NCBI GenBank assembly: GCA_964016885.1
Contig: OZ024743.1
Coordinates: 117,428,001-117,492,000, forward strand
Length of the DNA stretch: 64,000 bases
Reading direction: 5' to 3'
DNA from: Eledone cirrhosa
Taxonomy: Eukaryota
The notes under the pieces are model-generated. The model worked only from the letters and a program-made list of their open reading frames with translations, was not told the origin of the DNA and did not search any database. Position 1 is the first letter of the stretch, and each line of letters starts with the position of its first letter. Both the position numbers and the translations under genes were made by a program. This document shows, piece after piece, positions 1 through 64,000 of this stretch.

Positions 1-66
1 TAGCTCAGTTGGGATAGCGTTAGACTGAAGATCTAAAGGTCCCCTGTTCAATCCCGAGTTTCGGCA
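1..66 (+). tRNA. trnF-GAA: tRNA-Phe(GAA), 5' truncated by window edge, unit 1
   Basis: Anticodon arm TTAGA-CTGAAGA-TCTAA; G22T, G64A variants. Confidence 0.85.
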
Positions 67-372
67 TGCAGACTTATTATTTTCTCAAATATTTCTAATG
101 ATTTTGATAGAGAACTATATATGATTTAAATAACAATTAATCGAATGGTTCCTTTGTCAGTCATCAAAAAGTCACTTTTATTTTAGTAGACACCAAATAA
201 TACCAACTATCAGCAAAACGTCATATAGTTCAGGTGTGTTTTTGAACATTTAGTTCCGATTCAATAAAAGAGGAATATTAGACGACAATATCAGGTATTC
301 AGTTTATCAATTCAAATAATGTGTTGAACATTCTAAACGAAACCGTCTATATATGAATTTATAGCAAGAGCT

Positions 373-378
373 GTCTCT

Positions 379-412
<34 letters not shown>

Positions 413-446
413 TGAAAGGTTGGTGGTTCAAGTACACCCAGGGACG
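373..446 (+). tRNA. trnN-GTT: tRNA-Asn(GTT), unit 1
   Basis: GTCTCTGTGGCGCAATCGGTTAGCGCG..CTGTTAA..CAGGGACG cloverleaf; C61A variant. Confidence 0.88.
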
Positions 447-784
447 TAATAGTCTACTTTTGCTTTAGAAACATTACTAAAAAATCTGTATATTTAGGTT
501 TACTGCTTGCATTTAGAATTATTTGTAACACTAATACATGTTTCAATATATTAGCCTGATAAAGATTAATTTTGCTTTACGTTACCTAAACCATTTCATC
601 TCTACTGGATTGTATTTCACCAAAAATCTTCATATTTCTATCTTAAACGAACACTGATCATCATCTGATGGAACATATAAAGTGTATGTTATAAAAAAAA
701 TTCAAATGTTTTAACAATCTAAAGTAGATTATATTTATGTTTGTTTAAGTTCTTTCGTAAATATACATTCAGCAAGCACCATTG

Positions 785-857
785 ATCCGGCTAGCTCAGT
801 CGGTAGAGCAGGAGACACTTAATCTCAGAGTCCAGGTTTCGTGTCCAACGTTGGGTG
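785..857 (+). pseudogene. trnK-CTT: tRNA-Lys(CTT) pseudogene, unit 1
   Basis: CCGGCTAGCTCAGTCGGTAGAGCA 5' half matches tRNA-Lys; T33A, A58T, T-stem unpaired, G53T. Confidence 0.82.
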
Positions 858-1221
858 AAAATGGTATTGTTTCCATGATATGTTTTATAAAATTGACATT
901 AATATTAATATTACGAAATAATTATATGGTACATTCATGTATCATGATCAATTGATATTCACCCTAAATATCTAATTGCAAAGCGAAATTTTCAGTGAGT
1001 TTTCAAAGCATTATTATATATTTATGAAATTATTTTGCTATAGGTATGATATGAATTTACTAATATTAATTTTAGTATATAGAACTTGCAACAGGAATAA
1101 GCAAGTTCAATTCAAATATTTATGTTTTACATAAAAATTACTCGTTTCTAAATCATAAATAATTATATTTCTCGAAGTATTTGTTTAATATAAATATATT
1201 GTGGCGATACTGATGTAATTA

Positions 1222-1229
1222 TGACGTCA
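1222..1229. promoter_or_regulatory. CRE/ATF palindrome TGACGTCA at -31..-24 of tRNA-Phe (repeated in every unit)
   Basis: Perfect 8-bp CRE consensus seen directly; function not shown. Confidence 0.4.
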
Positions 1230-1252
1230 AATAGAGAGTCACTAGCTGTACA

Positions 1253-1325
1253 GCCGAAATAGCTCAGTTGGGTTAGCGTTAGACTGAAGATCTAAAGGTC
1301 CCCTGTTCAATCCCGAGTTTCGGCA
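1253..1325 (+). tRNA. trnF-GAA: tRNA-Phe(GAA), unit 2
   Basis: GCCGAAA..TTTCGGCA cloverleaf; A21T, G22T, G64A. Confidence 0.85.
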
Positions 1326-1338
1326 TGCAGACTTATTA

Positions 1339-1342
1339 TTTT
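1339..1342 (+). terminator. Pol III T4 terminator after tRNA-Phe (each unit)
   Basis: TTATTATTTT ~14 nt downstream of the discriminator base. Confidence 0.6.
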
Positions 1343-1606
1343 CTCAAATATTTCTAATGATTTTGATAGAGAACTATATATGATTTAAATAACAATTAAT
1401 CGAATGGTTCCTTTGTCAGTCATCAAAAAGTCACTTTTATTTTAGTAGACACCAAATAATACCAACTATCAGCAAAACGTCATATAGTTCAGGTGTGTTT
1501 TTGAACATTTAGTTCCGATTCAATAAAAGAGGAATATTAGACGACAATATCAGGTATTCAGTTTATCAATTCAAATAATGTGTTGAACATTCTAAACGAA
1601 ACCGTC

Positions 1607-1613
1607 TATATAT
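1607..1613 (+). promoter_or_regulatory. TATA-like element at -25..-19 of tRNA-Asn (each unit)
   Basis: TATATAT near the TFIIIB/TBP position; AT-rich background lowers significance. Confidence 0.35.
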
Positions 1614-1631
1614 GAATGTATAGCAAGAGCT

Positions 1632-1637
1632 GTCTCT

Positions 1638-1671
<34 letters not shown>

Positions 1672-1705
1672 TGAAAGGTTGGTGGTTCAAGTCCACCCAG
1701 GGACG
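1632..1705 (+). tRNA. trnN-GTT: tRNA-Asn(GTT), unit 2
   Basis: Array consensus cloverleaf, A and B boxes intact. Confidence 0.92.
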
Positions 1706-1716
1706 TAATAGTCTAC

Positions 1717-1720
1717 TTTT
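1717..1720 (+). terminator. Pol III T4 terminator after tRNA-Asn (each unit)
   Basis: CTACTTTTGCTTT ~12 nt downstream. Confidence 0.6.
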
Positions 1721-2043
1721 GCTTTAGAAACATTACTAAAAAATCTGTATATTTAGGTTTACTGCTTGCATTTAGAATTATTTGTAACACTAATACATGT
1801 TTCAATATATTAGCCTGATAAAGATTAATTTTGCTTTACGTTACCTAAACCATTTCATCTCTACTGGATTGTATTTCACCAAAAATCTTCATATTTCTAT
1901 CTTAAACGAACACTGATCATCATCTGATGGAACATATAAAGTGTATGTTATAAAAAAAATTCAAATGTTTTAACAATCTAAAGTAGATTATATTTATGTT
2001 TGTTTAAGTTCTTTCGTAAATATACATTCAGCAAGCACCATTG

Positions 2044-2116
2044 ATCCGGCTAGCTCAGTCGGTAGAGCAGGAGACACTTAATCTCAGAGTCCAGGTTTCG
2101 TGTCCAACGTTGGGTG
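2044..2116 (+). pseudogene. trnK-CTT: tRNA-Lys(CTT) pseudogene, unit 2
   Basis: As unit 1. Confidence 0.82.
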
Positions 2117-2511
2117 AAAATGGTATTGTTTCCATGATATGTTTTATAAAATTGACATTAATATTAATATTACGAAATAATTATATGGTACATTCATGTA
2201 TCATGATCAATTGATATTCACCCTAAATATCTAATTGCAAAGCGAAATTTTCAGTGAGTTTTCAAAGCATTCTTATATATTTATGAAATTATTTTGCTAT
2301 AGGTATGATATTAATTTACTAATATTAATTTTAGTATATAGAACTTGCAACAGGAATAAGCAAGTTCAATTCAAATATTTATGTTTTACATAAAAATTAC
2401 TCGTTTCTAAATCATAAATGATTATATTTCTCGAAGTATTTGTTTAATATAAATATATTGTGGCGATACTGATGTAATTATGACGTCAAATAGAGAGTCA
2501 CTAGCTGTACA

Positions 2512-2584
2512 GCCGAAATTGCTCAGTTGGGAGAGCTTTAGACTGAAGATCTAATGGTCCCCTGTTCAATCCCGGGTTTCGGCA
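2512..2584 (+). tRNA. trnF-GAA: tRNA-Phe(GAA), unit 3
   Basis: A9T, G26T, A44T. Confidence 0.85.
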
Positions 2585-2889
2585 TGCAGACTTATTATTT
2601 TCTCAAATATTTCTAATGATTTTGATAGAGAACTATATATGATTTAAATAACAATTAATCGAATGGTTCCTTTGTCAGTCATCAAAAAGCACTTTTATTT
2701 TAGTAGACACCAAATAATACCAACTATCAGCAAAACGTCATATAGTTCAGGTGTGTTTTTGAACATTTAGTTCCGATTCAATAAAAGAGGAATATTAGAC
2801 GACAATATCAGGTATTCAGTTTATCAATTCAAATAATGTGTTGAACATTCTAAACGAAACCGTCTATATATGAACGTATAGTAAGAGCT

Positions 2890-2895
2890 GTCTCT

Positions 2896-2929
<34 letters not shown>

Positions 2930-2963
2930 TGAAAGGTTGGTGGTTCAAGTCCACCCAGGGACG
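2890..2963 (+). tRNA. trnN-GTT: tRNA-Asn(GTT), unit 3
   Basis: Array consensus. Confidence 0.92.
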
Positions 2964-3301
2964 TAGTATTCTAGTTTTGCTTTAGAAACATTACTAAAAA
3001 ATCTGTATATTTAGGTTTACAGCTTGCATTTAGAATTATTTGTAACACTAATACATGTTTCAATATATTAGCCTGATAAAGATTAATTTTGCTTTACGTT
3101 ACCTAAACCATTTCATCTCTACTGGATTGTATTTCACCAAAAATCTTCATATTTCATTCTTAAACGAACACTGATCATCATCTGATGGAACATATAAAGT
3201 GTATGTTATAAAAAAAATTCAAATGTTTTAACAATCTAAAGTAGATTATATTTATGTTTGTTTAAGTTCTTTCGTAAATATACATTCAGCAAGCACCATT
3301 G

Positions 3302-3374
3302 ATCCGGCTAGCTCAGTCGGTAGAGCAGGAGACACTTAATCTCAGAGTCCAGGTTTCGTGTCCAACGTTGGGTG
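3302..3374 (+). pseudogene. trnK-CTT: tRNA-Lys(CTT) pseudogene, unit 3
   Basis: As unit 1. Confidence 0.82.
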
Positions 3375-3769
3375 AAAATGGTATTGTTTCCATGATATGT
3401 TTTATAAAATTGACATTAATATTAATATTACGAAATAATTATATGGTACATTCATGTATCATGATCAATTGATATTCACCCTAAATATCTAATTGCAAAG
3501 CGAAATTTTCAGTGAGTTTTCAAAGCATTATTATATATTTATGAAATTATTTTGCTATAGGTATGATATGAATTTACTAATATTAATTTTAGTATATAGA
3601 ACTTGCAACAGGAATAAGCAAGTTCAATTCAAATATTTATGTTTTACATAAAAATTACTCGTTTCTAAATCATAAATGATTATATTTCTCGAAGTATTTG
3701 TTTAATATAAATATATTGTGGCGATACTGATGTAATTATGACGTCAAATAGAGAGTCACTAGCTGTACA

Positions 3770-3842
3770 GCCGAAATAGCTCAGTTGGGATAGCGTTAGA
3801 CTGAAGATCTAAAGGTCCCCTGTTCAATCCCGAGTTTCGGCA
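3770..3842 (+). tRNA. trnF-GAA: tRNA-Phe(GAA), unit 4
   Basis: G22T, G64A. Confidence 0.85.
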
Positions 3843-4148
3843 TGCAGACTTATTATTTTCTCAAATATTTCTAATGATTTTGATAGAGAACTATATATGA
3901 TTTAAATAACAATTAATCGAATGGTTCCTTTGTCAGTCATCAAAAAGTCACTTTTATTTTAGTAGACACCAAATAATACCAACTATCAGCAAAACGTCAT
4001 ATAGTTCAGGTGTGTTTTTGAACATTTAGTTCCGATTCAATAAAAGAGGAATATTAGACGACAATATCAGGTATTCAGTTTATCAATTCAAATAATGTGT
4101 TGAACATTCTAAACGAAACCGTCTATATATGAATGTATAGCAAGAGCT

Positions 4149-4154
4149 GTCTCT

Positions 4155-4188
<34 letters not shown>

Positions 4189-4222
4189 TGAAAGGTTGGT
4201 GGTTTAAGTACACCCAGGGACG
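4149..4222 (+). tRNA. trnN-GTT: tRNA-Asn(GTT), unit 4, B box damaged
   Basis: GGTTTAAGTAC (C56T, C61A). Confidence 0.75.
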
Positions 4223-4560
4223 TAATAGTCTACTTTTGCTTTAGAAACATTACTAAAAAATCTGTATATTTAGGTTTACTGCTTGCATTTAGAATTATTT
4301 GTAACACTAATACATGTTTCAATATATTAGCCTGATAAAGATTAATTTTGCTTTACGTTACCTAAACCATTTCATCTCTACTGGATTGTATTTCACCAAA
4401 AATCTTCATATTTCTATCTTAAACGAACACTGATCATCATCTGATGGAACATATAAAGTGTATGTTATAAAAAAAATTCAAATGTTTTAACAATCTAAAG
4501 TAGATTATATTTATGTTTGTTTAAGTTCTTTCGTAAATATACATTCAGCAAGCACCATTG

Positions 4561-4633
4561 ATCCGGCTAGCTCAGTCGGTAGAGCAGGAGACACTTAATC
4601 TCAGAGTCCAGGTTTCGTGTCCAACGTTGGGTG
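4561..4633 (+). pseudogene. trnK-CTT: tRNA-Lys(CTT) pseudogene, unit 4
   Basis: As unit 1. Confidence 0.82.
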
Positions 4634-5028
4634 AAAATGGTATTGTTTCCATGATATGTTTTATAAAATTGACATTAATATTAATATTACGAAATAATTA
4701 TATGGTACATTCATGTATCATGATCAATTGATATTCACCCTAAATATCTAATTGCAAAGCGAAATTTTCAGTGAGTTTTCAAAGCATTATTATATATTTA
4801 TGAAATTATTTTGCTATAGGTATGATATGAATTTACTAATATTAATTTTAGTATATAGAACTTGCAACAGGAATAAGCAAGTTCAATTCAAATATTTATG
4901 TTTTACATAAAAATTACTCGTTTCTAAATCATAAATAATTATATTTCTCGAAGTATTTGTTTAATATAAATATATTGTGGCGATACTGATGTAATTATGA
5001 CGTCAAATAGAGAGTCACTAGCTGTACA

Positions 5029-5101
5029 GCCGAAATAGCTCAGTTGGGTTAGCGTTAGACTGAAGATCTAAAGGTCCCCTGTTCAATCCCGAGTTTCGGC
5101 A
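5029..5101 (+). tRNA. trnF-GAA: tRNA-Phe(GAA), unit 5
   Basis: Same variants as unit 2. Confidence 0.85.
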
Positions 5102-5407
5102 TGCAGACTTATTATTTTCTCAAATATTTCTAATGATTTTGATAGAGAACTATATATGATTTAAATAACAATTAATCGAATGGTTCCTTTGTCAGTCATC
5201 AAAAAGTCACTTTTATTTTAGTAGACACCAAATAATACCAACTATCAGCAAAACGTCATATAGTTCAGGTGTGTTTTTGAACATTTAGTTCCGATTCAAT
5301 AAAAGAGGAATATTAGACGACAATATCAGGTATTCAGTTTATCAATTCAAATAATGTGTTGAACATTCTAAACGAAACCGTCTATATATGAATGTATAGC
5401 AAGAGCT

Positions 5408-5413
5408 GTCTCT

Positions 5414-5447
<34 letters not shown>

Positions 5448-5481
5448 TGAAAGGTTGGTGGTTCAAGTCCACCCAGGGACG
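5408..5481 (+). tRNA. trnN-GTT: tRNA-Asn(GTT), unit 5
   Basis: Array consensus. Confidence 0.92.
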
Positions 5482-5819
5482 TAATAGTCTACTTTTGCTT
5501 TAGAAACATTACTAAAAAATCTGTATATTTAGGTTTACTGCTTGCATTTAGAATTATTTGTAACACTAATACATGTTTCAATATATTAGCCTGATAAAGA
5601 TTAATTTTGCTTTACGTTACCTAAACCATTTCATCTCTACTGGATTGTATTTCACCAAAAATCTTCATATTTCTATCTTAAACGAACACTGATCATCATC
5701 TGATGGAACATATAAAGTGTATGTTATAAAAAAAATTCAAATGTTTTAACAATCTAAAGTAGATTATATTTATGTTTGTTTAAGTTCTTTCGTAAATATA
5801 CATTCAGCAAGCACCATTG

Positions 5820-5892
5820 ATCCGGCTAGCTCAGTCGGTAGAGCAGGAGACACTTAATCTCAGAGTCCAGGTTTCGTGTCCAACGTTGGGTG
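5820..5892 (+). pseudogene. trnK-CTT: tRNA-Lys(CTT) pseudogene, unit 5
   Basis: As unit 1. Confidence 0.82.
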
Positions 5893-6287
5893 AAAATGGT
5901 ATTGTTTCCATGATATGTTTTATAAAATTGACATTAATATTAATATTACGAAATAATTATATGGTACATTCATGTATCATGATCAATTGATATTCACCCT
6001 AAATATCTAATTGCAAAGCGAAATTTTCAGTGAGTTTTCAAAGCATTCTTATATATTTATGAAATTATTTTGCTATAGGTATGATATTAATTTACTAATA
6101 TTAATTTTAGTATATAGAACTTGCAACAGGAATAAGCAAGTTCAATTCAAATATTTATGTTTTACATAAAAATTACTCGTTTCTAAATCATAAATGATTA
6201 TATTTCTCGAAGTATTTGTTTAATATAAATATATTGTGGCGATACTGATGTAATTATGACGTCAAATAGAGAGTCACTAGCTGTACA

Positions 6288-6360
6288 GCCGAAATTGCTC
6301 AGTTGGGAGAGCGTTAGACTGAAGATCTAATGGTCCCCTGTTCAATCCCGGGTTTCGGCA
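6288..6360 (+). tRNA. trnF-GAA: tRNA-Phe(GAA), unit 6
   Basis: A9T, A44T. Confidence 0.85.
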
Positions 6361-6665
6361 TGCAGACTTATTATTTTCTCAAATATTTCTAATGATTTTG
6401 ATAGAGAACTATATATGATTTAAATAACAATTAATCGAATGGTTCCTTTGTCAGTCATCAAAAAGCACTTTTATTTTAGTAGACACCAAATAATACCAAC
6501 TATCAGCAAAACGTCATATAGTTCAGGTGTGTTTTTGAACATTTAGTTCCGATTCAATAAAAGAGGAATATTAGACGACAATATCAGGTATTCAGTTTAT
6601 CAATTCAAATAATGTGTTGAACATTCTAAACGAAACCGTCTATATATGAACGTATAGTAAGAGCT

Positions 6666-6671
6666 GTCTCT

Positions 6672-6705
<34 letters not shown>

Positions 6706-6739
6706 TGAAAGGTTGGTGGTTCAAGTCCACCCAGGGACG
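6666..6739 (+). tRNA. trnN-GTT: tRNA-Asn(GTT), unit 6
   Basis: Array consensus. Confidence 0.92.
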
Positions 6740-7077
6740 TAGTATTCTAGTTTTGCTTTAGAAACATTACTAAAAAATCTGTATATTTAGGTTTACAGCT
6801 TGCATTTAGAATTATTTGTAACACTAATACATGTTTCAATATATTAGCCTGATAAAGATTAATTTTGCTTTACGTTACCTAAACCATTTCATCTCTACTG
6901 GATTGTATTTCACCAAAAATCTTCATATTTCATTCTTAAACGAACACTGATCATCATCTGATGGAACATATAAAGTGTATGTTATAAAAAAAATTCAAAT
7001 GTTTTAACAATCTAAAGTAGATTATATTTATGTTTGTTTAAGTTCTTTCGTAAATATACATTCAGCAAGCACCATTG

Positions 7078-7150
7078 ATCCGGCTAGCTCAGTCGGTAGA
7101 GCAGGAGACACTTAATCTCAGAGTCCAGGTTTCGTGTCCAACGTTGGGTG
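7078..7150 (+). pseudogene. trnK-CTT: tRNA-Lys(CTT) pseudogene, unit 6
   Basis: As unit 1. Confidence 0.82.
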
Positions 7151-7545
7151 AAAATGGTATTGTTTCCATGATATGTTTTATAAAATTGACATTAATATTA
7201 ATATTACGAAATAATTATATGGTACATTCATGTATCATGATCAATTGATATTCACCCTAAATATCTAATTGCAAAGCGAAATTTTCAGTGAGTTTTCAAA
7301 GCATTATTATATATTTATGAAATTATTTTGCTATAGGTATGATATGAATTTACTAATATTAATTTTAGTATATAGAACTTGCAACAGGAATAAGCAAGTT
7401 CAATTCAAATATTTATGTTTTACATAAAAATTACTCGTTTCTAAATCATAAATAATTATATTTCTCGAAGTATTTGTTTAATATATATATATTGTGGCGA
7501 TACTGATGTAATTATGACGTCAAATAGAGAGTCACTAGCTGTACA

Positions 7546-7618
7546 GCCGAAGTAGCTCAGTTGGGATAGCGTTAGACTGAAGATCTAAAGGTCCCCTGTT
7601 CAATCCCGAGTTTCGGCA
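7546..7618 (+). tRNA. trnF-GAA: tRNA-Phe(GAA), unit 7
   Basis: A7G, G22T, G64A. Confidence 0.83.
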
Positions 7619-7924
7619 TGCAGACTTATTATTTTCTCAAATATTTCTAATGATTTTGATAGAGAACTATATATGATTTAAATAACAATTAATCGAATGG
7701 TTCCTTTGTCAGTCATCAAAAAGTCACTTTTATTTTAGTAGACACCAAATAATACCAACTATCAGCAAAACGTCATATAGTTCAGGTGTGTTTTTGAACA
7801 TTTAGTTCCGATTCAATAAAAGAGGAATATTAGACGACAATATCAGGTATTCAGTTTATCAATTCAAATAATGTGTTGAACTTTCTAAACGAAACCGTCT
7901 ATATATGAACGTATAGTAAGAGCT

Positions 7925-7930
7925 GTCTCT

Positions 7931-7964
<34 letters not shown>

Positions 7965-7998
7965 TGAAAGGTTGGTGGTTCAAGTCCACCCAGGGACG
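7925..7998 (+). tRNA. trnN-GTT: tRNA-Asn(GTT), unit 7
   Basis: Array consensus. Confidence 0.92.
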
Positions 7999-8336
7999 TA
8001 GTAGTCTAGCTTTGCTTTAGAAACATTACTAAAAAATCTGTATATTTAGGTTTACAGCTTGCATTTAGAATTATTTGTAACACTAATACATGTTTCAATA
8101 TATTAGCCTGATAAAGATTAATTTTGCTTTACGTTACCTAAACCATTTCATCTCTACTGGATTGTATTTCACCAAAAATCTTCATATTTCTATCTTAAAC
8201 GAACACTGATCATCATCTGATGGAACATATAAAGTGTATGTTATAAAAAAAATTCAAATGTTTTAACAATCTAAAGTAGATTATATTTATGTTTGTTTAA
8301 GTTCTTTCGTAAATATACATTCAGCAAGCACCATTG

Positions 8337-8409
8337 ATCCGGCTAGCTCAGTCGGTAGAGCAGGAAACACTTAATCTCAGAGTCCAGGTTTCGTGTCCAA
8401 CGTTGGGTG
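8337..8409 (+). pseudogene. trnK-CTT: tRNA-Lys(CTT) pseudogene, unit 7
   Basis: As unit 1 plus GGAAA anticodon-stem change. Confidence 0.8.
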
Positions 8410-8804
8410 AAAATGGTATTGTTTCCATGATATGTTTTATAAAATTGACATTAATATTAATATTACGAAATAATTATATGGTACATTCATGTATCATGAT
8501 CAATTGATATTCACCCTAAATATCTAATTGCAAAGCGAAATTTTCAGTGAGTTTTCAAAGCATTATTATATATTTATGAAATTATTTTGCTATAGGTATG
8601 ATATGAATTTACTAATATTAATTTTAGTATATAGAACTTGCAACAGGAATAAGCAAGTTCAATTCAAATATTTATGTTTTACATAAAAATTACTCGTTTC
8701 TAAATCATAAATAATTATATTTCTCGAAGTATTTGTTTAATATAAATATATTGTGGCGATACTGATGTAATTATGACGTCAAATAGAGAGTCACTAGCTG
8801 TACA

Positions 8805-9183: not shown

Positions 9184-9189
9184 GTCTCT

Positions 9190-9223
<34 letters not shown>

Positions 9224-54958: not shown

Positions 54959-55353
54959 AAAATGGTATTGTTTCCATGATATGTTTTATAAAATTGACAT
55001 TAATATTAATATTACGAAATAATTATATGGTACATTCATGTATCATGATCAATTGATATTCACCCTAAATATCTAATTGCAAAGCGAAATTTTCAGTGAG
55101 TTTTCAAAGCATTCTTATATATTTATGAAATTATTTTGCTATAGGTATGATATGAATTTACTAATATTAATTTTAGTATATAGAACATGCAACAGGAATA
55201 AGCAAGTTCAATTCAAATATTTATGTTTTACATATAAATTACTCGTTTCTAAATCATAAATGATTATATTTCTCGAAGTATTTGTTTAATATAAATATAT
55301 CGTGGCGATACTGATGTAATTATGACGTCAAATAGAGAGTCACTAGCTGTACA

Positions 55354-55426
55354 GCCGAAATAGCTCAGTTGGGAGAGCGTTAGACTGAAGATCTAAAGGT
55401 CCCCTGTTCAATCCCAGGTTTCGGCA
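55354..55426 (+). tRNA. trnF-GAA: tRNA-Phe(GAA), unit 45
   Basis: G63A (second T-stem mismatch). Confidence 0.83.
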
Positions 55427-55731
55427 TGCAGACGTATTATTTTCTCAAATATTTCTAATGATTTTGATAGAGAACTATTTATGATTTAAATAACAATTAA
55501 TCGAATGGTTCCTTTGTCAGTCATCAAAGAGTCACTTTTATTTTAGTAGACACCAAATAATACCAACTATCAGCCACACGTCATATAGTTCAGGTGTTTT
55601 TTGAACATTTAGTTCCGATTCAATAAAAGAGGAATATTAGACGACAATATCAGTTATTCAGTTTATCAATTCAAATAATGTGATGAACATTCTAAACGAA
55701 ACCGTCTATATATGAATGTATAGTAAGAGCT

Positions 55732-55737
55732 GTCTCT

Positions 55738-55771
<34 letters not shown>

Positions 55772-55805
55772 TGAAAGGTTGGCGGTTCAAGTCCACCCAG
55801 GGACG
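55732..55805 (+). tRNA. trnN-GTT: tRNA-Asn(GTT), unit 45
   Basis: T51C. Confidence 0.87.
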
Positions 55806-56143
55806 TAATAGTCTACTTTTGCTTTAGAAACATTACTAAAAAATCTGTATATTTAGGTTTACAGCTTGCATTTAGAATTATTTGTAACACTAATACATGT
55901 TTCAATATATTAGCCTGATAAAGATTAATTTTGCTTTACGTTACCTAAACCATTTCATCTCTACTGGATTGTATTTCACAAAAAATCTTCATATTTCTAT
56001 CTTAAAGGAACACTGATCATCATCTGATGGAACATATAAAGTTTACGTTATAAAAAAAATTGAAATGTTTTAACAATGTAAAGTAGATTATATTTATGTT
56101 TGTTTAAGTTCTTTCGTAAATATACATTCAGCACGCACCATTG

Positions 56144-56216
56144 ATCCGGCTAGCTCAGTAGGTAGAGCAGGAGACACTTAATCTCAGAGTCCAGCGTTCG
56201 TGTCCAACGTTGGGTT
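56144..56216 (+). pseudogene. trnK-CTT: tRNA-Lys(CTT) pseudogene, unit 45
   Basis: Extra C17A, G52C, G73T. Confidence 0.77.
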
Positions 56217-56611
56217 AAAATGGTATTGTTTCCATGATATGTTTTATAAAATTGACATTAATATTAATATTACGAAATAATTATATGGTACATTCATGTA
56301 TCATGATCAATTGATATTCACCCTAAATATCTAATTGCAAAGCGAAATTTTCAGTGAGTTTTCAAAGCATTCTTATATATTTATGAAATTATTTTGCTAT
56401 AGGTATGATATGAATTTACTAATATTAATTTTAGTATATAGAACATGCAACAGGAATAAGCAAGTTCAATTCAAATATTTATGTTTTACAAAAATATTAC
56501 TCGTTTCTAAATCATAAATGATTATATTTCTCGAAGTATTTGTTTAATATAAATATATTGTGGCGATACTGATGTAATTATGACGTCAAATAGAGAGTCA
56601 CTCGCTGTACA

Positions 56612-56684
56612 GCCGAAATAGCTCAGTTGGGAGAGCGTTAGACTGAAGATCTAAAGGTCCCCTGTTCAATCCCGGGTTTCGGCA
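56612..56684 (+). tRNA. trnF-GAA: tRNA-Phe(GAA), unit 46
   Basis: Array consensus. Confidence 0.92.
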
Positions 56685-56990
56685 TGCAGACGTATTATTT
56701 TCTCAAATATTTCTAATGATTTTGATAGAGAACTATATATGATTTAAAGAACAATTAATCGAATGGTTCATTTGTCAGTCATCAAAAAGTCACTTTTATT
56801 TTAGTAGACACCAAATAATACCAACTATCAGCAAAACGTCATATAGTTCAGGTGTGTTTTTGAACATTTAGTTCCGATTCAATAAAAGAGGAATATTAGA
56901 CGACAATATCAGCTATTCAATTTATCAATTCAAATAATGTGTTGAACATTCTAAACGAAACCGTCTATATATGAATGTATAGTAAGAGCT

Positions 56991-56996
56991 GTCTCT

Positions 56997-57030
<34 letters not shown>

Positions 57031-57064
57031 TGAAAGGTTGGTGGTTCAAGTCCACCCAGGGACG
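56991..57064 (+). tRNA. trnN-GTT: tRNA-Asn(GTT), unit 46
   Basis: Array consensus. Confidence 0.92.
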
Positions 57065-57402
57065 TAATAGTCTACTTTTGCTTTAGAAACATTACTAAAA
57101 AATCTGTATATTTAGGTTTACAGCTTGCATTCAGAATTATTTGTAACACTAATACATGTTTCAATATATTACCCTGATAAAGATTAATTTTGCTTTACGT
57201 TACCTAAACCATTTCATCTCTACTGGATTGTATTTCACCAAAAATCTTCATATTTCTATCTTAAACGAACACTGATCATCATCTGATGGAACATATAAAG
57301 TGTATGTTATAAAAAAAATTCAAATGTTTTAACAATCTAAAGTAGATTATATTTATGTTTGTTTAAGTCCTTTCGTAAATATACATTCAGCACGCACCAT
57401 TG

Positions 57403-57475
57403 ACCCGGCTAGCTCAGTCGGTAGAGCAGGAGACACTTAATCTCAGAGTCCAGGGTTCGTGTCCAACGTTGGGTG
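57403..57475 (+). pseudogene. trnK-CTT: tRNA-Lys(CTT) pseudogene, unit 46
   Basis: Starts ACCCGGC (canonical C2). Confidence 0.82.
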
Positions 57476-57870
57476 AAAATGGTATTGTTTCCATGATATG
57501 TTTTATAAAATTGACATTAATATTAATATTAAGAAATAATTATATGGTACATTCATGTATCATGAACAATTGATATTCACCCTAAATATCTAATAGCAAA
57601 GCGAAATTTTCAGTGAGTTTTCAAAGCATTCTTATATATTTATGAAATTATTTTGCTATAGGTATGATATGAATTTACTAATATTAATTTTAGTATATAG
57701 AACATGCAACAGGAATAAGCAAGTTCAATTCAAATATTTATGTTTTACAAAACAATTACTCGTTTCTAAATCATAAATGATTATATTTCTCGAAGTATTT
57801 GTTTAATATAAATATATTGTGGCGATACTGATGTAATTATGACGTCAAATAGAGAGTCACTAGCTGTACA

Positions 57871-57943
57871 GCCGAAATAGCTCAGTTGGGAGAGCGTTAG
57901 ACTGAAAATCTAAAGGTCCCCTGTTCACTCCCGGGTTTCGGCA
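57871..57943 (+). tRNA. trnF-GAA: tRNA-Phe(GAA), unit 47, damaged
   Basis: G37A, A58C. Confidence 0.72.
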
Positions 57944-58249
57944 TGCAGACTTATTATTTTCTCAAATATTTCTAATGATTTTGATATAAAACTATATATG
58001 ATTTAAATAACAAATAATCGAATGGTTCCTTTGTCAGTCATCAAAAAGTCACTTTTATTTTAGTAGACACCAAATAATACCAACTATCAGCAAAACGTCA
58101 TATAGTTCAGGTGTGTTTTTGAACATTTAGTTCCGATTCAATAAAAGAGGAATATTAGACGACAATATCAGCTATTCAGTTTATCAATTCAAATAATGTG
58201 TTGAACATTCTAAACGAAACCGTCTATATATGAATGTATAGTAAGAGCT

Positions 58250-58255
58250 GTCTCT

Positions 58256-58289
<34 letters not shown>

Positions 58290-58323
58290 TGAAAGGTTGG
58301 TGGTTCAAGTCCACCCAGGGACG
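58250..58323 (+). tRNA. trnN-GTT: tRNA-Asn(GTT), unit 47
   Basis: Array consensus. Confidence 0.92.
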
Positions 58324-58659
58324 TAATAGTCTACTTTTGCTTTAGAAACATTACTAAAATATCTGTATATTTAGGTTTACAGCTTGCATTCAGAATTATT
58401 TGTAACACTAATACATGTTTCAATATATTAGCCTGATAAAGATTAATTTTGCTTTACGTTACCTAAACCATTTCATCTCTACTGGATTGTATTTCACCAA
58501 AAATCTTCATATGTCTATCTTAAACGAACACTGATCATCATCTGATGGAACATATAAAGTGTATGTTATAAAAAAAATTCAAATGTTTTAACAATCTAAA
58601 GTAGATTATATTTGTTTGTTTAAGTCCTTTCGTAAATATACATTCAGCACGCACCATTG

Positions 58660-58732
58660 ATCCGGCTAGCTCAGTCGGTAGAGCAGGAGACACTTAATCT
58701 CAGAGTCCAGGGTTCGTGTCCAACGTTGGGTG
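58660..58732 (+). pseudogene. trnK-CTT: tRNA-Lys(CTT) pseudogene, unit 47
   Basis: As unit 9. Confidence 0.82.
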
Positions 58733-59127
58733 AAAATGGTATTGTTTCCATGATATGTTTTATAAAATTGACATTAATATTAATATTACGAAATAATTAT
58801 ATGGTACATTCATGTATCATGATCAATTGATATTCACCCTAAATATCTAATAGCAAAGCGAAATTTTCAGTGAGTTTTCAAAGCATTCTTATATATTTAT
58901 GAAATTATTTTGCTATAGGTATGATATGAATTTACTAATATTAATTTTAGTATATAGAACATGCAACAGGAATAAGCAAGTTCAATTCAAATATTTATGT
59001 TTTACAAAAAAATTACTCGTTTCTAAATCATAAATGATTATATTTCTCGAAGTATTTGTTTAATATAAATATATTGTGGCGATACTGATGTAATTATGAC
59101 GTCAAATAGAGAGTCACTCGCTGTACA

Positions 59128-59200
59128 GCCGAAATAGCTCAGTTGGGAGAGCGTTAGACTGAAGATCTAACGGTCCCCTGTTCAATCCCGGGTTTCGGCA
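59128..59200 (+). tRNA. trnF-GAA: tRNA-Phe(GAA), unit 48
   Basis: A44C. Confidence 0.9.
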
Positions 59201-59506
59201 TGAAGACTTATTATTTTCTCAAATATTTCTAATGATTTTGATAGAGAACTATATATGATTTAAATAACAAATAATCGAATGGTTCCTTTGTCAGTCAACA
59301 AAAAGTCACTTTTATTTTAGTAGACACCAAATAATACCAACTATCAGCAAAACGTCATATAGTTCAGGTGTGTTATTGAACATTTAGTTCCGATTCAATA
59401 AAAGAGGAATATTAGACGACAATATCAGCTATTCAGTTTATCAATTCAAATAATGTGTTGGACATTCTAAACGAAACCGTCTATATATGAATGTATAGTA
59501 AGAGCT

Positions 59507-59580
59507 GTCTCTGTGTCACAATCGGTTAGCGCGTTCGGCTGTTAACTGAAAGGTTGGTGGTTCAAGTCCACCCAGGGACG
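59507..59580 (+). tRNA. trnN-GTT: tRNA-Asn(GTT), unit 48, D stem/A box damaged
   Basis: TGTCACAAT instead of TGGCGCAAT. Confidence 0.75.
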
Positions 59581-59916
59581 TAATAGTCTACTTTTGCTTT
59601 AGAAACATTACTAAAAAATCTGTATATTTAGGTTTACAGCTTGCATTCAGAATTATTTGTAACACTAATACATGTTTCAATATATTAGCCTGATAAAGAT
59701 TAATTTTGCTTTACGTTACCTAAACCATTTCATCTCTACTGGATTGTATTTCACCAAAAATCTTCATATTTCTATCTTAAACGAACACTGATCATCATCT
59801 GATGGAACATATAAAGTGTATGTTATAAAAAAAATTCAAATGTTTTAACAATCTAAAGTAGATTATATTTGTTTGTTTAAGTCCTTTCGTAAATATACAT
59901 TCAGCACGCACCATTG

Positions 59917-59989
59917 ATCCGGCTAGCTCAGTCGGTAGAGCAGGAGACACTTAATCTCAGAGTCCAGGGTTTGTGTCCAACGTTGGGTG
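59917..59989 (+). pseudogene. trnK-CTT: tRNA-Lys(CTT) pseudogene, unit 48
   Basis: Extra C56T. Confidence 0.8.
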
Positions 59990-60384
59990 AAAATGGTATT
60001 GTTTCCATGATATGTTTTATAAAATTGACATTAATATTAATATTACGAAATAATTATATGGTACATTCATGTATCATGATCAATTGATATTCACCCTAAA
60101 TATCTAATAGCAAAGCGAAATTTTCAGTGAGTTTTCAAAGCATTCTTATATATTTATGAAATTATTTTGCTATAGGTATGATATGAATTTACTAATATTA
60201 ATTTTAGTATATAGAACATGCAACAGGAATAAGCAAGTTCAATTCAAATATTTATGTTTTACATATAAATTACTCGTTTCTAAATCATAAATGATTATAT
60301 TTCTCGAAGTATTTGTTTAATATAAATATATTGTGGCGATACTGATGTAATTATGACGTCAAATAGAGAGTCACTCGCTGTACA

Positions 60385-60457
60385 GCCGAAATAGCTCAGT
60401 TGGGAGAGCGTTAGACTGAAGATCTAAAGGTCCCCTGTTCAATCCCGGGTTTCGGCA
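60385..60457 (+). tRNA. trnF-GAA: tRNA-Phe(GAA), unit 49
   Basis: Array consensus. Confidence 0.92.
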
Positions 60458-60763
60458 TGCAGACGTATTATTTTCTCAAATATTTCTAATGATTTTGATA
60501 GAGAACTATATATGATTTAAATAACAATTAATCGAATGGTTCCTTTGTCAGTCATCAAAAAGTCACTTTTATTTTAGTAGACACCAAATAATACCAACTA
60601 TCAGCAAAACGTCGTATAGTTCAGGTGTGTTTTTAAACATTTAGTTCCGATTCAATAAAAGAGGAATATTAGACGACAATATCAGCTATTCAGTTTATCA
60701 ATTCAAATAATGTGTTGAACATTCTAAACGAAACCGTCTATATATGAATGTATAGAAAGAGCT

Positions 60764-60769
60764 GTCTCT

Positions 60770-60803
<34 letters not shown>

Positions 60804-60837
60804 TGAAAGGTTGGTGGTTCAAGTCCACCCAGGGACG
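60764..60837 (+). tRNA. trnN-GTT: tRNA-Asn(GTT), unit 49
   Basis: Array consensus. Confidence 0.92.
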
Positions 60838-61173
60838 TAATAGTCTACTTTTGCTTTAGAAACATAACTAAAAAATCTGTATATTTAGGTTTACAGCTTG
60901 CATTCAGAATTATTTGTAACACTAATACATGTTTCAATATATTAGCCTGATAAAGATTAATTTTGCTTTACGTTACCTAAACCATTTCATCTCTACTGGA
61001 TTGTATTTCACCAAAAATCTTCATATTTCTATCTTAAACGAACACTGATCATCATCTGATGGAACATATAAAGTGTATGTTATAAAAAAAATTCAAATGT
61101 TTTAACAATCTAAAGTAGATTATATTTGTTTGTTTAAGTCCTTTCGTAAATATACATTCAGCACGCACCATTG

Positions 61174-61246
61174 ATCCGGCTAGCTCAGTCGGTAGAGCAG
61201 GAGACACTTAATCTCAGAGTCCAGGGTTCGTGTCCAACGTTGGGTG
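61174..61246 (+). pseudogene. trnK-CTT: tRNA-Lys(CTT) pseudogene, unit 49
   Basis: As unit 9. Confidence 0.82.
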
Positions 61247-61641
61247 AAAATGGTATTGTTTCCATGATATGTTTTATAAAATTGACATTTATATTAATAT
61301 TACGAAATAATTATATGGTACATTCATGTATCATGATCAATTGATATTCACCCTAAATATCTAATAGCAAAGCGAAATTTTCAGTGAGTTTTCAAAGCAT
61401 TCTTATATATTTATGAAATTATTTTGCTATAGGTATGATATGAATTTACTAATATTAATTTTAGTATATAGAACATGCAACAGGAATAAGCAAGTTCAAT
61501 TCAAATATTTATGTTTTACATATAAATTACTCGTTTCTAAATCATAAATGATTATATTTCTCGAAGTATTTGTTTAATATAAATATATTGTGGCGATACT
61601 GATGTAATTATGACGTCAAATAGAGAGTCACTCGCTGTACA

Positions 61642-61714
61642 GCCGAAATAGCTCAGTTGGGAGAGCGTTAGACTGAAGATCTAAAGGTCCCCTGTTCAAT
61701 CCCGGGTTTCGGCA
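61642..61714 (+). tRNA. trnF-GAA: tRNA-Phe(GAA), unit 50
   Basis: Array consensus. Confidence 0.92.
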
Positions 61715-62020
61715 TGCAGACGTATTATTTTCTCAAATATTTCTAATGATTTTGATAGAGAACTATATATGATTTAAATGACAATTAATCGAATGGTTCC
61801 TTTGTCAGTCATCAAAAAGTCACTTTTATTTTAGTAGACACCAAATAATACCAACTATCAACAAAACGTCGTATAGTTCAGGTGTGTTTTTAAACATTTA
61901 GTTCCGATTCAATAAAAGAGGAATATTAGACGACAATATCAGCTATTCAGTTTATCAATTCAAATAATGTGTTGAACATTCTAAACGAAACCGTCTATAT
62001 ATGAATGTATAGAAAGAGCT

Positions 62021-62026
62021 GTCTCT

Positions 62027-62060
<34 letters not shown>

Positions 62061-62094
62061 TGAAAGGTTGGTGGTTCAAGTCCACCCAGGGACG
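62021..62094 (+). tRNA. trnN-GTT: tRNA-Asn(GTT), unit 50
   Basis: Array consensus. Confidence 0.92.
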
Positions 62095-62430
62095 TAATAG
62101 TCTACTTTTGCTATAGAAACATTACTAAAAAATCTGTATATTTAGGTTTACAGCTTGCATTCAGAATTATTTGTAACACTAATACATGTTTCAATATATT
62201 AGCCTGATAAAGATTAATTTTGCTTTACGTTACCTAAACCATTTCATCTCTACTGGATTGTATTTCACCAAAAATCTTCATATTTCTATCTTAAACGAAC
62301 ACTGATCATCATCTGATGGAACATATAAAGTGTATGTTATAAAAAAAATTCAAATGTTTTAGCAATCTAAAGTAGATTATATTTGTTTGTTTAAGTCCTT
62401 TCGTAAATATACATTCAGCACGCACCATTG

Positions 62431-62503
62431 ATCCGGCTAGCTCAGTCGGTAGAGCAGGAGACACTTAATCTCAGAGTCCAGGGTTCGTGTCCAACGTTGG
62501 GTG
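62431..62503 (+). pseudogene. trnK-CTT: tRNA-Lys(CTT) pseudogene, unit 50
   Basis: As unit 9. Confidence 0.82.
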
Positions 62504-62898
62504 AAAATGGTATTGTTTCCATGATATGTTTTATAAAATTGACATTAATATTAATATTACGAAATAATTATATGGTACATTCATGTATCATGATCAATTG
62601 ATATTCACCCTAAATATCTAATTGCAAAGCGAAATTTTCAGTGAGTTTTCAAAGCATTCTTATATATTTATGAAATTATTTTGCTATAGGTATGATATGA
62701 ATTTACTAATATTAATTTTAGTATATAGAACATGCAACAGGAATAAGCAAGTTCAATTCAAATATTTATGTTTTACATATAAATTACTCGTTTCTAAATC
62801 ATAAATGATTATATTTCTCGAAGTATTTGTTTAATATAAATATATTGTGGCGATACTGATGTAATTATGACGTCAAATAGAGAGTCACTCGCTGTACA

Positions 62899-62971
62899 GC
62901 CGAAATAGCTCAGTTGGGAGAGCGTTAGACTGAAGATCTAAAGGTCCCCTGTTCAATCCCGGGTTTCGGCA
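62899..62971 (+). tRNA. trnF-GAA: tRNA-Phe(GAA), unit 51
   Basis: Array consensus. Confidence 0.92.
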
Positions 62972-63277
62972 TGCAGACTTATTATTTTCTCAAATATTTC
63001 TAATGATTTTGATAGAGAACTATATATGATTTAAATAACAAATAATCGAATGGTTCCTTTGTCAGTCATCAAAAAGTCACTTTTATTTTAGTAGACACCA
63101 AATAATACCAACTATCAGCAAAACGTCATATAGTTCAGGTGTGTTATTGAACATTTAGTTCCGATTCAATAAAAGAGGAATATTAGACGACAATATCAGC
63201 TATTCAGTTTATCAATTCAAATAATGTGTTGAACATTCTAAACGAAACCGTCTATATATGAATGTATAGTAAGAGCT

Positions 63278-63351
63278 GTCTCTGTGTCGCAATCGGTTAG
63301 CGCGTTCGGCTGTTAACTGAAATGTTGGTGGTTCAAGTCCACCCAGGGACG
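63278..63351 (+). tRNA. trnN-GTT: tRNA-Asn(GTT), unit 51
   Basis: G10T and a variable-loop G>T. Confidence 0.82.
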
Positions 63352-63687
63352 TAATAGTCTACTTTTGCTTTAGAAACATTACTAAAAAATCTGTATATTT
63401 AGGTTTACAGCTTGCATTCAGAATTATTTGTAACACTAATACATGTTTCAATATATTAGCCTGATAAAGATTAATTTTGCTTTACGTTACCTAAACCATT
63501 TCATCTCTACTGGATTGTATTTCACCAAAAATCTTCATATTTCTATCTTAAACGAACACTGATCATCATCTGATGGAACATATAAAGTGTATGTTATAAA
63601 AAAAATTCAAATGTTTTAACAATCTAAAGTAGATTATATTTGTTTGTTTAAGTCCTTTCGTAAATATACATTCAGCACGCACCATTG

Positions 63688-63760
63688 ATCCGGCTAGCTC
63701 AGTCGGTAGAGCAGGAGACACTTAATCTCAGAGTCCAGGGTTCGTGTCCAACGTTGGGTG
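63688..63760 (+). pseudogene. trnK-CTT: tRNA-Lys(CTT) pseudogene, unit 51
   Basis: As unit 9. Confidence 0.82.
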
Positions 63761-64000
63761 AAAATGGTATTGTTTCCATGATATGTTTTATAAAATTGAC
63801 ATTAATATTAATATTACGAAATAATTATATGGTACATTCATGTATCATGATCAATTGATATTCACCCTAAATATCTAATTGCAAAGCGAAATTTTCAGTG
63901 AGTTTTCAAAGCATTCTTATATATTTATGAAATTATTTTGCTATAGGTATGATATGAATTTACTAATATTAATTTTAGTATATAGAACTTGCAACAGGAA

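What the first reader, a model, noticed from the sequence alone, without database searches (positions are those of the whole stretch)
1..64000. A >64 kb tRNA-gene macrosatellite: ~51 tandem Phe-Asn-psiLys cassettes (~153 tRNA-like loci)
Seen: an uninterrupted head-to-tail 1.26 kb unit with three co-oriented tRNA sequences and homogenised AT-rich spacers, with no transposon or unique DNA, open at both ends. Known: tandem tDNA arrays exist (Xenopus laevis 3.18 kb repeat, human 1q23 tRNA repeat, Entamoeba tRNA arrays), so the class is not new, but I do not recognise this particular unit. Inference: it evolves like satellite DNA by concerted evolution. It could be a dosage or stage-specific (e.g. 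oocyte) tRNA source, or a structural domain (TFIIIC/condensin platform, pericentromeric or subtelomeric block).
Basis: partly seen in the sequence, partly recalled or inferred. Interest (0 to 1): 0.75.

Follow-up and report, generated by a model that had tools for sequence, protein, structure and literature searches.

The report
Cephalopod Phe-Asn-Lys tRNA gene array
This is a real 341-kb run of 272 head-to-tail repeats, each carrying a phenylalanine, an asparagine and a broken lysine tRNA gene, and it holds most motif-counted copies of the first two genes in a likely cephalopod genome; stranded old copies at its ends show those two stayed almost unchanged while the lysine gene decayed, so it is likely a still-working tRNA gene array of a known kind.

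Summary
Observation confirmed: all 64,000 bases are one ~1,259-bp unit carrying Phe(GAA), Asn(GTT) and a Lys(CTT) pseudogene, 153 loci. The array is closed: 272 units, 341 kb, interstitial on a 379-Mb scaffold of a likely octopod cephalopod, with decayed, insertion-broken copies at both ends. It holds 213 of 255 Phe-motif and 236 of 257 Asn-motif hits in the assembly, all as private variants (Phe with a U52·C62 mismatch). Against the stranded end copies, Phe and Asn changed at 1 of 147 sites, spacers at 78 of 1,035 and Lys at 7 of 73 (p=0.0006), so selection likely kept two genes while the third died array-wide. New mutations are about 2.2-fold in excess just upstream of Phe and Asn, a likely footprint of germline Pol III transcription. 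Damaged copies are common and not depleted. Expression, copy-number variation and cross-species conservation were not tested. The class is known (Arabidopsis SYY, Xenopus, zebrafish, human 1q23). This scan noted similar single-amino-acid arrays elsewhere in this genome, and I found two Lys arrays. Verdict: new member of a known kind; the open question is whether it is a maternal-type tRNA source.

The parts
1..64000 (+). Interior of a head-to-tail tRNA gene array (core units 55-104 of 272 start in the window); whole array 341,257 bp at G000:C4:117,362,945-117,704,201
1253..2511 (+). One complete 1,259-bp unit (Phe - 306 bp - Asn - 338 bp - psiLys - 395 bp)
1253..1325 (+). tRNA-Phe(GAA), array-type: C51 and T52 instead of the dispersed genes' T51 and G52, giving a U52·C62 T-stem mismatch; T52 in 272 of 272 units; TTTT run 14 nt downstream. 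Repeats about every 1,259 bp (50 complete copies, last 62899-62971)
1233..1252 (+). 20-nt 5' flank of Phe: 28 derived alleles over 272 units against 12.5 expected
1632..1705 (+). tRNA-Asn(GTT), array-type: T at gene base 41 (Sprinzl 40, G·U wobble in the anticodon stem) in 272 of 272 units; TATA-like stretch about 25 nt upstream, TTTT run 12 nt downstream; 51 copies (first 373-446)
1612..1631 (+). 20-nt 5' flank of Asn: 26 derived alleles against 11.5 expected
2044..2116 (+). tRNA-Lys(CTT) pseudogene: 12 differences from this genome's working Lys gene, among them A33 and T58 (272 of 272 units) and three broken T-stem pairs; 51 copies (first 785-857, last from 63688)
1..66 (+). Phe gene cut by the window start

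Best explanation
The window lies inside a 272-unit tandem tRNA gene array that likely grows, shrinks and homogenises by unequal crossing-over, and whose Phe and Asn genes are likely still transcribed by RNA polymerase III and kept usable by selection on the array as a whole, while the Lys gene is a dead passenger. Shown: size, closed ends, local similarity gradient, private Phe and Asn variants, conservation of Phe and Asn against the end copies, neutral-rate change in Lys, excess of new alleles just upstream of Phe and Asn. Inferred: (1) a three-gene Phe-Asn-Lys block was amplified long ago; (2) turnover replaced the core while end copies, cut off by insertions, decayed; (3) unit variants that damage Phe or Asn arise freely and spread locally but do not sweep the array, because that would remove most of the output, whereas Lys-damaging variants swept since working Lys genes sit in other arrays; (4) the upstream excess is transcription-associated mutation, and being inherited it must have arisen in the germ line or early embryo. 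Copy number itself is likely drifting rather than tuned to Phe/Asn demand.
For: Edge-majority versus core consensus: Phe 0 of 73, Asn 1 of 74, Lys 7 of 73, spacers 78 of 1,035 sites differ; Phe+Asn vs spacer p=0.0006, Lys vs Phe+Asn p=0.002, Lys vs spacer p=0.49 (18 edge pieces). With 14 of 18 pieces and both ends required to agree: 1 of 143 vs 45 of 660, p=0.002; Lys 6 of 73. Fixed:polymorphic 1:131 in Phe+Asn vs 78:631 in spacers, p=3e-5; Lys 7:57, p=1.0. Alleles in 14 or more units: 3 of 131 in Phe+Asn vs 52 of 631 in spacers, p=0.015. 5' 20-nt flanks 2.24x and 2.26x expected, above all 742 distant sliding windows (max 1.71); a canonical Lys array on the same scaffold shows 2.64x (12 vs 4.5; 26 of 29 units used); this pattern marks active tRNA genes in PMC6130373 (passages). 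Rfam tRNA scores 62.9 (Phe) and 67.4 (Asn) bits against 69.8 and 70.8 for dispersed genes. 145 of 272 Phe and 161 of 272 Asn copies keep all consensus stem pairs, box bases and anticodon. Conversion from dispersed genes does not explain the conservation, since Phe keeps its private C51/T52 in core and ends and Lys was not reset. Unequal exchange: nearest relative within 10 units for 85%, runs of identical units at lags 2-5, an insertion copied at a 3-unit period.
Against: Within the core the genes are not depleted of variation: Phe 71 derived alleles vs 50.7 expected, Asn 60 vs 52.3, Lys 57 vs 51.4; only 87 of 272 Phe and 139 of 272 Asn equal the consensus; an Asn T-loop change sits in 35 units; 6 Phe copies read AAA. 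Every Phe copy has a T-stem mismatch (computed cloverleaf -17.9 vs -21.9 kcal/mol), and the core fixed a new wobble in Asn. The genome has 24 canonical Phe and 20 canonical Asn motif hits elsewhere, so it need not depend on this array. The flank signal is not clean: psiLys is also raised at -15..-5 (15 vs 7.9; 1.4% of 769 distant windows reach that), the Lys vs Phe+Asn contrast is only p=0.034 one-sided, and C>T plus G>A make up only 5 of 28 and 2 of 26 flank alleles, whereas PMC6130373 reports these as the commonest classes. End copies are few and related to each other, spacer differences are not polarised, and alleles on units are linked, so the p-values are optimistic. The edge test speaks for the long past, not necessarily for today.
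Confidence: 0.6

Rival explanations
1. The array worked in the past but is now silent tDNA-derived satellite DNA: all three genes drift, Lys simply died first, and the dispersed canonical genes supply Phe and Asn tRNA.
For: No depletion of polymorphism in Phe or Asn; about 40-47% of copies break a stem pair, box base or anticodon; fixed non-canonical bases in both genes; 24 and 20 canonical motif hits elsewhere, most fetched ones being clean genes with distinct flanks.
Against: No Phe/Asn allele exceeds 35 of 272 units, against 59 in Lys and 133 in spacers; excess of young alleles upstream of Phe and Asn; no CpG hypermutation (26 of 60 vs 131 of 327), which gives no sign of heavy germline methylation.
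Confidence: 0.2
2. The array is a maternal (oocyte) or otherwise stage-specific tRNA locus whose private isodecoders are stocked in eggs, while dispersed canonical genes serve somatic cells, as in zebrafish and Xenopus. This is a stronger version of the best explanation.
For: The array's Phe and Asn differ from the dispersed genes and are nearly confined to it (236 of 237 array-type Asn motif hits); selection and a likely germline transcription footprint. In zebrafish maternal-type isodecoders lie in large clusters and somatic ones are single (10.1101/869651 section 4; PMC11417395 passages).
Against: The two Lys arrays on the same scaffold carry mostly the same sequence as dispersed Lys genes, so array versus dispersed is not a consistent two-type split here. 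An inherited mutation footprint is expected of any gene active in the germ line. Private variants also follow from plain concerted evolution.
Confidence: 0.14
3. The array is kept mainly as a chromatin or chromosome-structure element (TFIIIC/condensin platform, pericentromeric or subtelomeric block).
For: Hundreds of internal A/B boxes in 341 kb; tRNA repeats are proposed boundaries elsewhere (PMC4041453 abstract).
Against: Interstitial, 117 Mb from the nearer scaffold end; one locus only (43 of 43 spacer-motif hits); no long satellite in the flanks sampled. Conservation covers the whole Phe and Asn bodies, not just the boxes, while Lys lost its B-box A58 in all units.
Confidence: 0.04
4. The array length is an assembly expansion.
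For: 31 of 272 units duplicate another unit exactly; read depth was not measured.
Against: 241 distinct units, longest identical run 5 units, smooth distance gradient, no N in 404 kb, decayed and insertion-broken ends. Four runs in two studies hold at least 55% of the unit's sampled words; one of them may be the source sample.
Confidence: 0.02

Closest known systems
Arabidopsis chromosome 1 Ser-Tyr-Tyr (SYY) tRNA array (PMC2886086: abstract and section 17 seen; PMC12308677: abstract seen)
   Same: Three-tRNA-gene unit in a tandem array; unequal crossing-over and concerted evolution; non-functional copies towards the ends; private isodecoders.
   Different: 27 units against 272 here; two amino acids against three; here one member of the triplet is dead in every unit. 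SYY is shown to be expressed in root-tip cells; expression here is untested.
Xenopus laevis 3.18-kb oocyte-type tRNA repeat (PMC1635290 passages and reference list seen; the primary paper PMC306215 was not held)
   Same: Tandem repeat of a unit that encodes several different tRNAs, in an animal that also has dispersed genes.
   Different: 8 genes per unit against 3. That its unit includes Phe, Asn and Lys is recalled, not checked; no homology of spacers was tested or is claimed.
Zebrafish chromosome 4 maternal-type tRNA clusters (10.1101/869651 abstract and section 4; PMC11417395 passages)
   Same: Large clusters holding most copies of an anticodon, beside few dispersed genes with other sequences.
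   Different: Maternal expression was measured there; here nothing on expression is known.
Human 1q23.3 tRNA VNTR (PMC4041453 abstract and outline seen)
   Same: Macrosatellite whose unit carries tRNA genes.
   Different: 7.3-kb GC-rich unit, 9-43 copies, CTCF site; here 1.26 kb, 31% G+C, 272 copies.
Large heterogeneous tDNA clusters of Nematostella and teleosts (PMC2888827 passages); very high tRNA gene counts in giant squid (PMC6962438 passages)
   Same: Clusters of fifty or more parallel tDNAs of mixed type with pseudogenes; K-N is a frequent pair in zebrafish; cephalopod genomes are known to carry thousands of tRNA loci.
   Different: The squid passages suggest many loci are SINE-like and do not describe tandem arrays; this unit was not found in the searches made.

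Membership tests
Heterogeneous tandem tDNA cluster (PMC2888827 definition) | Adjacent tDNAs less than 1,000 nt apart, of different amino-acid types | tested here: met
   Gaps of 306, 338 and 395 bp between Phe, Asn and psiLys in the consensus unit
Heterogeneous tandem tDNA cluster (PMC2888827 definition) | Members are recognisable tRNA genes or pseudogenes | tested here: met
   272 Asn(GTT) and 262 Phe(GAA) ARAGORN calls in the 404-kb region; Rfam 62.9 and 67.4 bits for consensus-type copies
Array under concerted evolution (Arabidopsis SYY type) | Units homogenised, similarity falls with distance, degenerate copies at the ends | tested here: met
   1.7% at lag 1 to 3.25% at lag 250; end copies 64-85% identical
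Array under concerted evolution (Arabidopsis SYY type) | Paralogues cluster within species when compared with an orthologous array | not tested
   No related genome is held and no reads of other organisms were laid
Macrosatellite / tRNA VNTR (human 1q23.3 type) | Copy-number variation between alleles | not testable with these tools
   One assembly only
Macrosatellite / tRNA VNTR (human 1q23.3 type) | GC-rich multi-kb unit with a conserved CTCF site | tested here: not met
   Unit 1.26 kb, 30.8% G+C; CTCF binding itself not tested
Maternal-type tRNA cluster (zebrafish, Xenopus) | Cluster encodes isodecoders distinct from the dispersed genes | tested here: met
   Phe differs at 2 of 73 and Asn at 2 of 74 bases from dispersed genes; 236 of 237 array-type Asn motif hits are in the array
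Maternal-type tRNA cluster (zebrafish, Xenopus) | Transcripts enriched in oocytes or eggs | not testable with these tools
   No expression data were examined
Entamoeba-type tRNA arrays (features recalled) | Short tandem repeats in the spacers | tested here: not met
   TRF finds 0 arrays of period up to 500 in the window
Centromeric or subtelomeric satellite (features recalled) | Terminal position, or presence on many chromosomes | tested here: not met
   One locus (43 of 43 spacer-motif hits), 117 Mb from the nearer end; CENP-A not testable
tRNA pseudogene (Lys member) | Loss of invariant bases and stems, neutral rate of change | tested here: met
   A33 and T58 in 272 of 272 units; 4 broken stem pairs; 7 of 73 fixed changes, equal to the spacer rate

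The most novel reading that the evidence does not exclude
Octopod cephalopods run a two-tier tRNA system like that of frogs and zebrafish: this array is a germline or oocyte locus that supplies the bulk of Phe and Asn tRNA as private isodecoders, including a working tRNA-Phe with a U52·C62 T-stem mismatch held unchanged through a whole turnover of the array, while a few dispersed canonical genes serve somatic cells. The diagnostic bases make this directly readable from tRNA-seq.
Probability: 0.15. Interest if true: 0.68.

Novelty: new member of a known kind. Interest (0 to 1): 0.38.

Why it matters
As a class it is ordinary, and this genome arrays many of its tRNA types. Its value is as a natural experiment: two constrained genes, one dead gene and spacers travel in the same unit, and stranded end copies record the old state. 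That separates array-level selection (no damaging sweeps) from copy-level drift (many damaged copies) and shows how homogenisation can kill a gene in all copies at once. Because array and dispersed Phe and Asn genes differ at fixed bases, one tRNA-seq experiment would show whether a mollusc has maternal-type tRNA clusters, which the papers I read document only in vertebrates.

Tried and rejected
TRF on the window gave 0 rows because the unit exceeds its 500-bp period limit. Rfam at E up to 1 on bases 1-4000 found only tRNA as a real family; the weak antisense and plastid hits are below their gathering scores and taken as chance. A vertebrate-type Lys motif had 0 hits in the genome; a looser motif found 60. 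No spacer homology was found between the unit and the dispersed or clustered Phe, Asn and Lys loci fetched, so the unit's origin is not traced; the exception is a short array-type Phe fragment at C4:33.18 Mb. A first idea that the pseudogene is a Lys(CTT)/Lys(TTT) chimera was dropped: the end copies show stepwise single changes from the CTT gene. A within-array depletion test for selection was negative. A paper search on a 52-62 T-stem mismatch listed two papers that I did not open, so the functional cost of U52·C62 is not known to me. Look-ups of earlier findings near the window, by sequence and by words returned nothing. 5 of 6 ORFs among the end copies had no Pfam match.
Full report
Observation. 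The window is one repeat from end to end: the consensus unit covers 64,000 of 64,000 bases at 98.0-99.4% identity. ARAGORN finds 50 Phe(GAA) and 51 Asn(GTT) genes on the + strand, a further Phe is cut by the window start, and 51 Lys-like copies are found by BLAST. Units are 1,252-1,260 bp and differ by 1.7% on average (49 complete units).

Extent and place. The window is G000:C4:117,428,001-117,492,000 in a 3.0-Gb assembly. Fetching both sides shows a closed array of 272 units over 341,257 bp, C4:117,362,945-117,704,201, with no N in 404 kb. It lies 31% along a 378.8-Mb scaffold. 14 of 20 sampled 3-kb stretches around it have no trace of the unit, and TRF finds no long satellite in the flanks examined. 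On both sides lie broken copies of 64-85% identity, separated by inserted DNA; one insert encodes a reverse-transcriptase fragment (Pfam RVT_1, E 8.5e-9; 1 of 6 ORFs tested). A spacer motif occurs 43 times in the genome, all in this array, so it is a single locus.

Organism. The genome has molluscan hemocyanin genes, with seven functional-unit matches in a row on C1; one unit scores 658 and 648 bits against chains 4yd9_C and 1js8_A and 459 against 8tnv_A. That these entries are squid, octopus and a gastropod, and that seven units is the octopod-type layout, is recalled. I infer a cephalopod, likely an octopod.

How it turns over. 241 of 272 units are distinct; the nearest relative of a unit is within 10 units in 85% of cases; distance rises from 1.7% at lag 1 to 3.25% at lag 250; the longest identical run is 5 units at lag 4. 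Units at the two ends are furthest from the consensus (39 and 47 changes against about 14 inside). Nine units near the left end share a deletion of about 190 bp, and three units at a 3-unit period near the right end share an insertion with a roughly 19-bp target duplication; that insert is a dispersed repeat with 1,196 candidates and 96-98% identical copies on many scaffolds. This is what local unequal exchange gives (inference; the model proposed for the Arabidopsis array, PMC2886086 abstract). It also argues against an assembly expansion, though read depth was not measured.

The genes. Compared with this genome's dispersed genes, array Phe differs at 2 of 73 bases, Asn at 2 of 74 and Lys at 12 of 73. 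Phe has T52 in 272 of 272 units, leaving a U52·C62 mismatch in the T-stem; Asn has a G·U wobble in the anticodon stem in 272 of 272; Lys has A33 and T58 in 272 of 272 and four broken stem pairs. Rfam scores are 62.9 and 67.4 bits for consensus-type Phe and Asn against 69.8 and 70.8 for dispersed genes; the Lys copies in L008 are not found, while a dispersed Lys scores 64.8. Phe and Asn are followed by TTTT within 14 nt. By exact motif, the array holds 213 of 255 Phe hits and 236 of 257 Asn hits (236 of 237 array-type plus 20 canonical; the two Asn motifs differ in length, so the share is approximate). Canonical genes exist elsewhere: 24 Phe motif hits, 16 of them in one cluster on C6, and 20 Asn hits, 11 on C17.

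Selection. The end copies record an older unit. Their majority base differs from the core consensus at 0 of 73 Phe, 1 of 74 Asn, 7 of 73 Lys and 78 of 1,035 spacer sites (18 pieces; Phe+Asn vs spacer p=0.0006, Lys vs spacer p=0.49). Dropping 4 pieces under 75% identity and requiring both ends to agree gives 1 of 143 against 45 of 660 distant spacer sites, p=0.002, and 6 of 73 for Lys. In 6 of the 7 Lys differences the ends carry the canonical base, so Lys decayed stepwise and the damage swept the core. Against this, variation inside the core is not depleted: Phe 71 derived alleles vs 50.7 expected, Asn 60 vs 52.3, Lys 57 vs 51.4, and only 145 Phe and 161 Asn copies of 272 keep all stem pairs, box bases and anticodon. 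The two results fit together if damage arises freely but cannot sweep: fixed to polymorphic is 1:131 in Phe+Asn and 78:631 in spacers (p=3e-5), and alleles in 14 or more units are 3 of 131 against 52 of 631 (p=0.015). The end copies are few and related, spacer changes are not polarised and alleles are linked, so these p-values overstate certainty. Lys, with the same G+C content and alignment quality as the other two genes, is the internal control.

A likely transcription footprint. Active tRNA genes show raised mutation in their inner 5' flank, peaking 10-15 nt upstream (PMC6130373 passages). Here the 20 nt before Phe and Asn carry 28 and 26 derived alleles against 12.5 and 11.5 expected, above all 742 distant windows (maximum 1.71x); Lys has 17 against 12.8 (15 windows were examined). 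A canonical Lys array on the same scaffold gives 12 against 4.5 (26 of 29 units kept by length). Limits: Lys is also raised in the narrower -15..-5 window (15 vs 7.9), the contrast with Phe and Asn is p=0.034 one-sided, and the flank spectrum is not rich in C>T and G>A (5 of 28 and 2 of 26). I read this as moderate support for germline Pol III activity, not proof.

Mechanism. Most likely (0.6): a working Phe/Asn array that turns over by unequal exchange, under selection at the level of the whole array, with a dead Lys passenger whose job is covered by other loci (60 Lys motif hits, 21 and 33 of them in two other arrays on C4). Rivals: now silent (0.2), maternal-specific (0.14), structural element (0.04), assembly artefact (0.02). 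Expression, chromatin state, copy-number variation and conservation in related species were not tested.

Comparison with what is known. It meets the definition of a heterogeneous tDNA cluster (PMC2888827 passages) and works like the Arabidopsis SYY triplet array (PMC2886086 abstract and section 17; PMC12308677 abstract), at ten times the unit number. It resembles the Xenopus multi-tRNA repeats (PMC1635290 passages; primary paper not held) and the zebrafish chromosome 4 clusters that encode maternal isodecoders (10.1101/869651 abstract and section 4; PMC11417395 passages), but the defining expression feature could not be tested. It differs from the human 1q23.3 VNTR in unit size and G+C (PMC4041453 abstract). 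Very high tRNA gene counts are reported for giant squid (PMC6962438 passages). Eight paper searches listed nothing that describes this unit or a cephalopod tRNA array; for most listed papers I saw only the title and start of the abstract, no supplements were read, and most subscription journals are not covered. Earlier notes of this scan report Met, Val, Pro and Thr arrays of 52-129 kb or 44 genes in the same genome (unchecked); my own finding of two Lys arrays agrees with that picture.

Verdict. Real, larger than reported, closed and interstitial; a new member of a known kind.

Noticed in passing
G000:C4:79,560,580-79,617,896 (L087-L093): Irregular array of 43 ARAGORN-called Lys-type genes, 13 identical to the canonical Lys(CTT); two copies have anticodons mutated to GTT and ATT on a Lys body.
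   Followed up: partly
G000:C4:128,674,437-128,741,695 (L094-L101): Tandem array of 32 Lys(CTT) genes with a ~1.9-kb unit, bracketed by one inverted copy at each end; used as control for the flank signal.
   Followed up: partly
G000:C6:85,450,585-85,467,740 (L105-L107): Cluster of 17 Phe(GAA) genes in mixed orientation with a shared 3' trailer and no T-run within the 20 nt shown.
   Followed up: no
G000:C17:1,407,682-1,426,158 (L070-L072): Cluster of 12 canonical Asn(GTT) genes in mixed orientation with diverged flanks.
   Followed up: no
G000:C4:117,679,345, 117,683,324 and 117,687,303 (L056-L057): A SINE-like dispersed repeat of about 180 bp inserted once in the Lys-Phe spacer and copied at a 3-unit period, a small higher-order repeat.
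   Followed up: partly
G000:C4:117,713,527 (right end copies): One end copy of the Lys gene still passes ARAGORN as tRNA-Lys(CTT), keeping T33 and A58.
   Followed up: yes
window 2014-2043 and equivalents: The TATA-like stretch 16-24 nt upstream of the dead Lys gene shows no variant in 272 units, and its -15..-5 flank is mildly hypervariable; residual Pol III initiation at the pseudogene is possible but not significant after multiple tests.
   Followed up: partly
G000:C4:33,179,330 (L068:5329-5381): A lone 53-bp fragment of the array-type Phe 3' half with its trailer, 84 Mb from the array.
   Followed up: no
G000:C4:117,390,979-117,401,051 and 117,682,398-117,686,377: Six Phe copies carry an AAA anticodon, amplified locally from what look like two separate mutations.
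   Followed up: no
G000:C1:173.75-173.91 Mb and C26:21.93-22.02 Mb: Hemocyanin genes: three tandem copies on C1 and an inverted pair on C26.
   Followed up: partly
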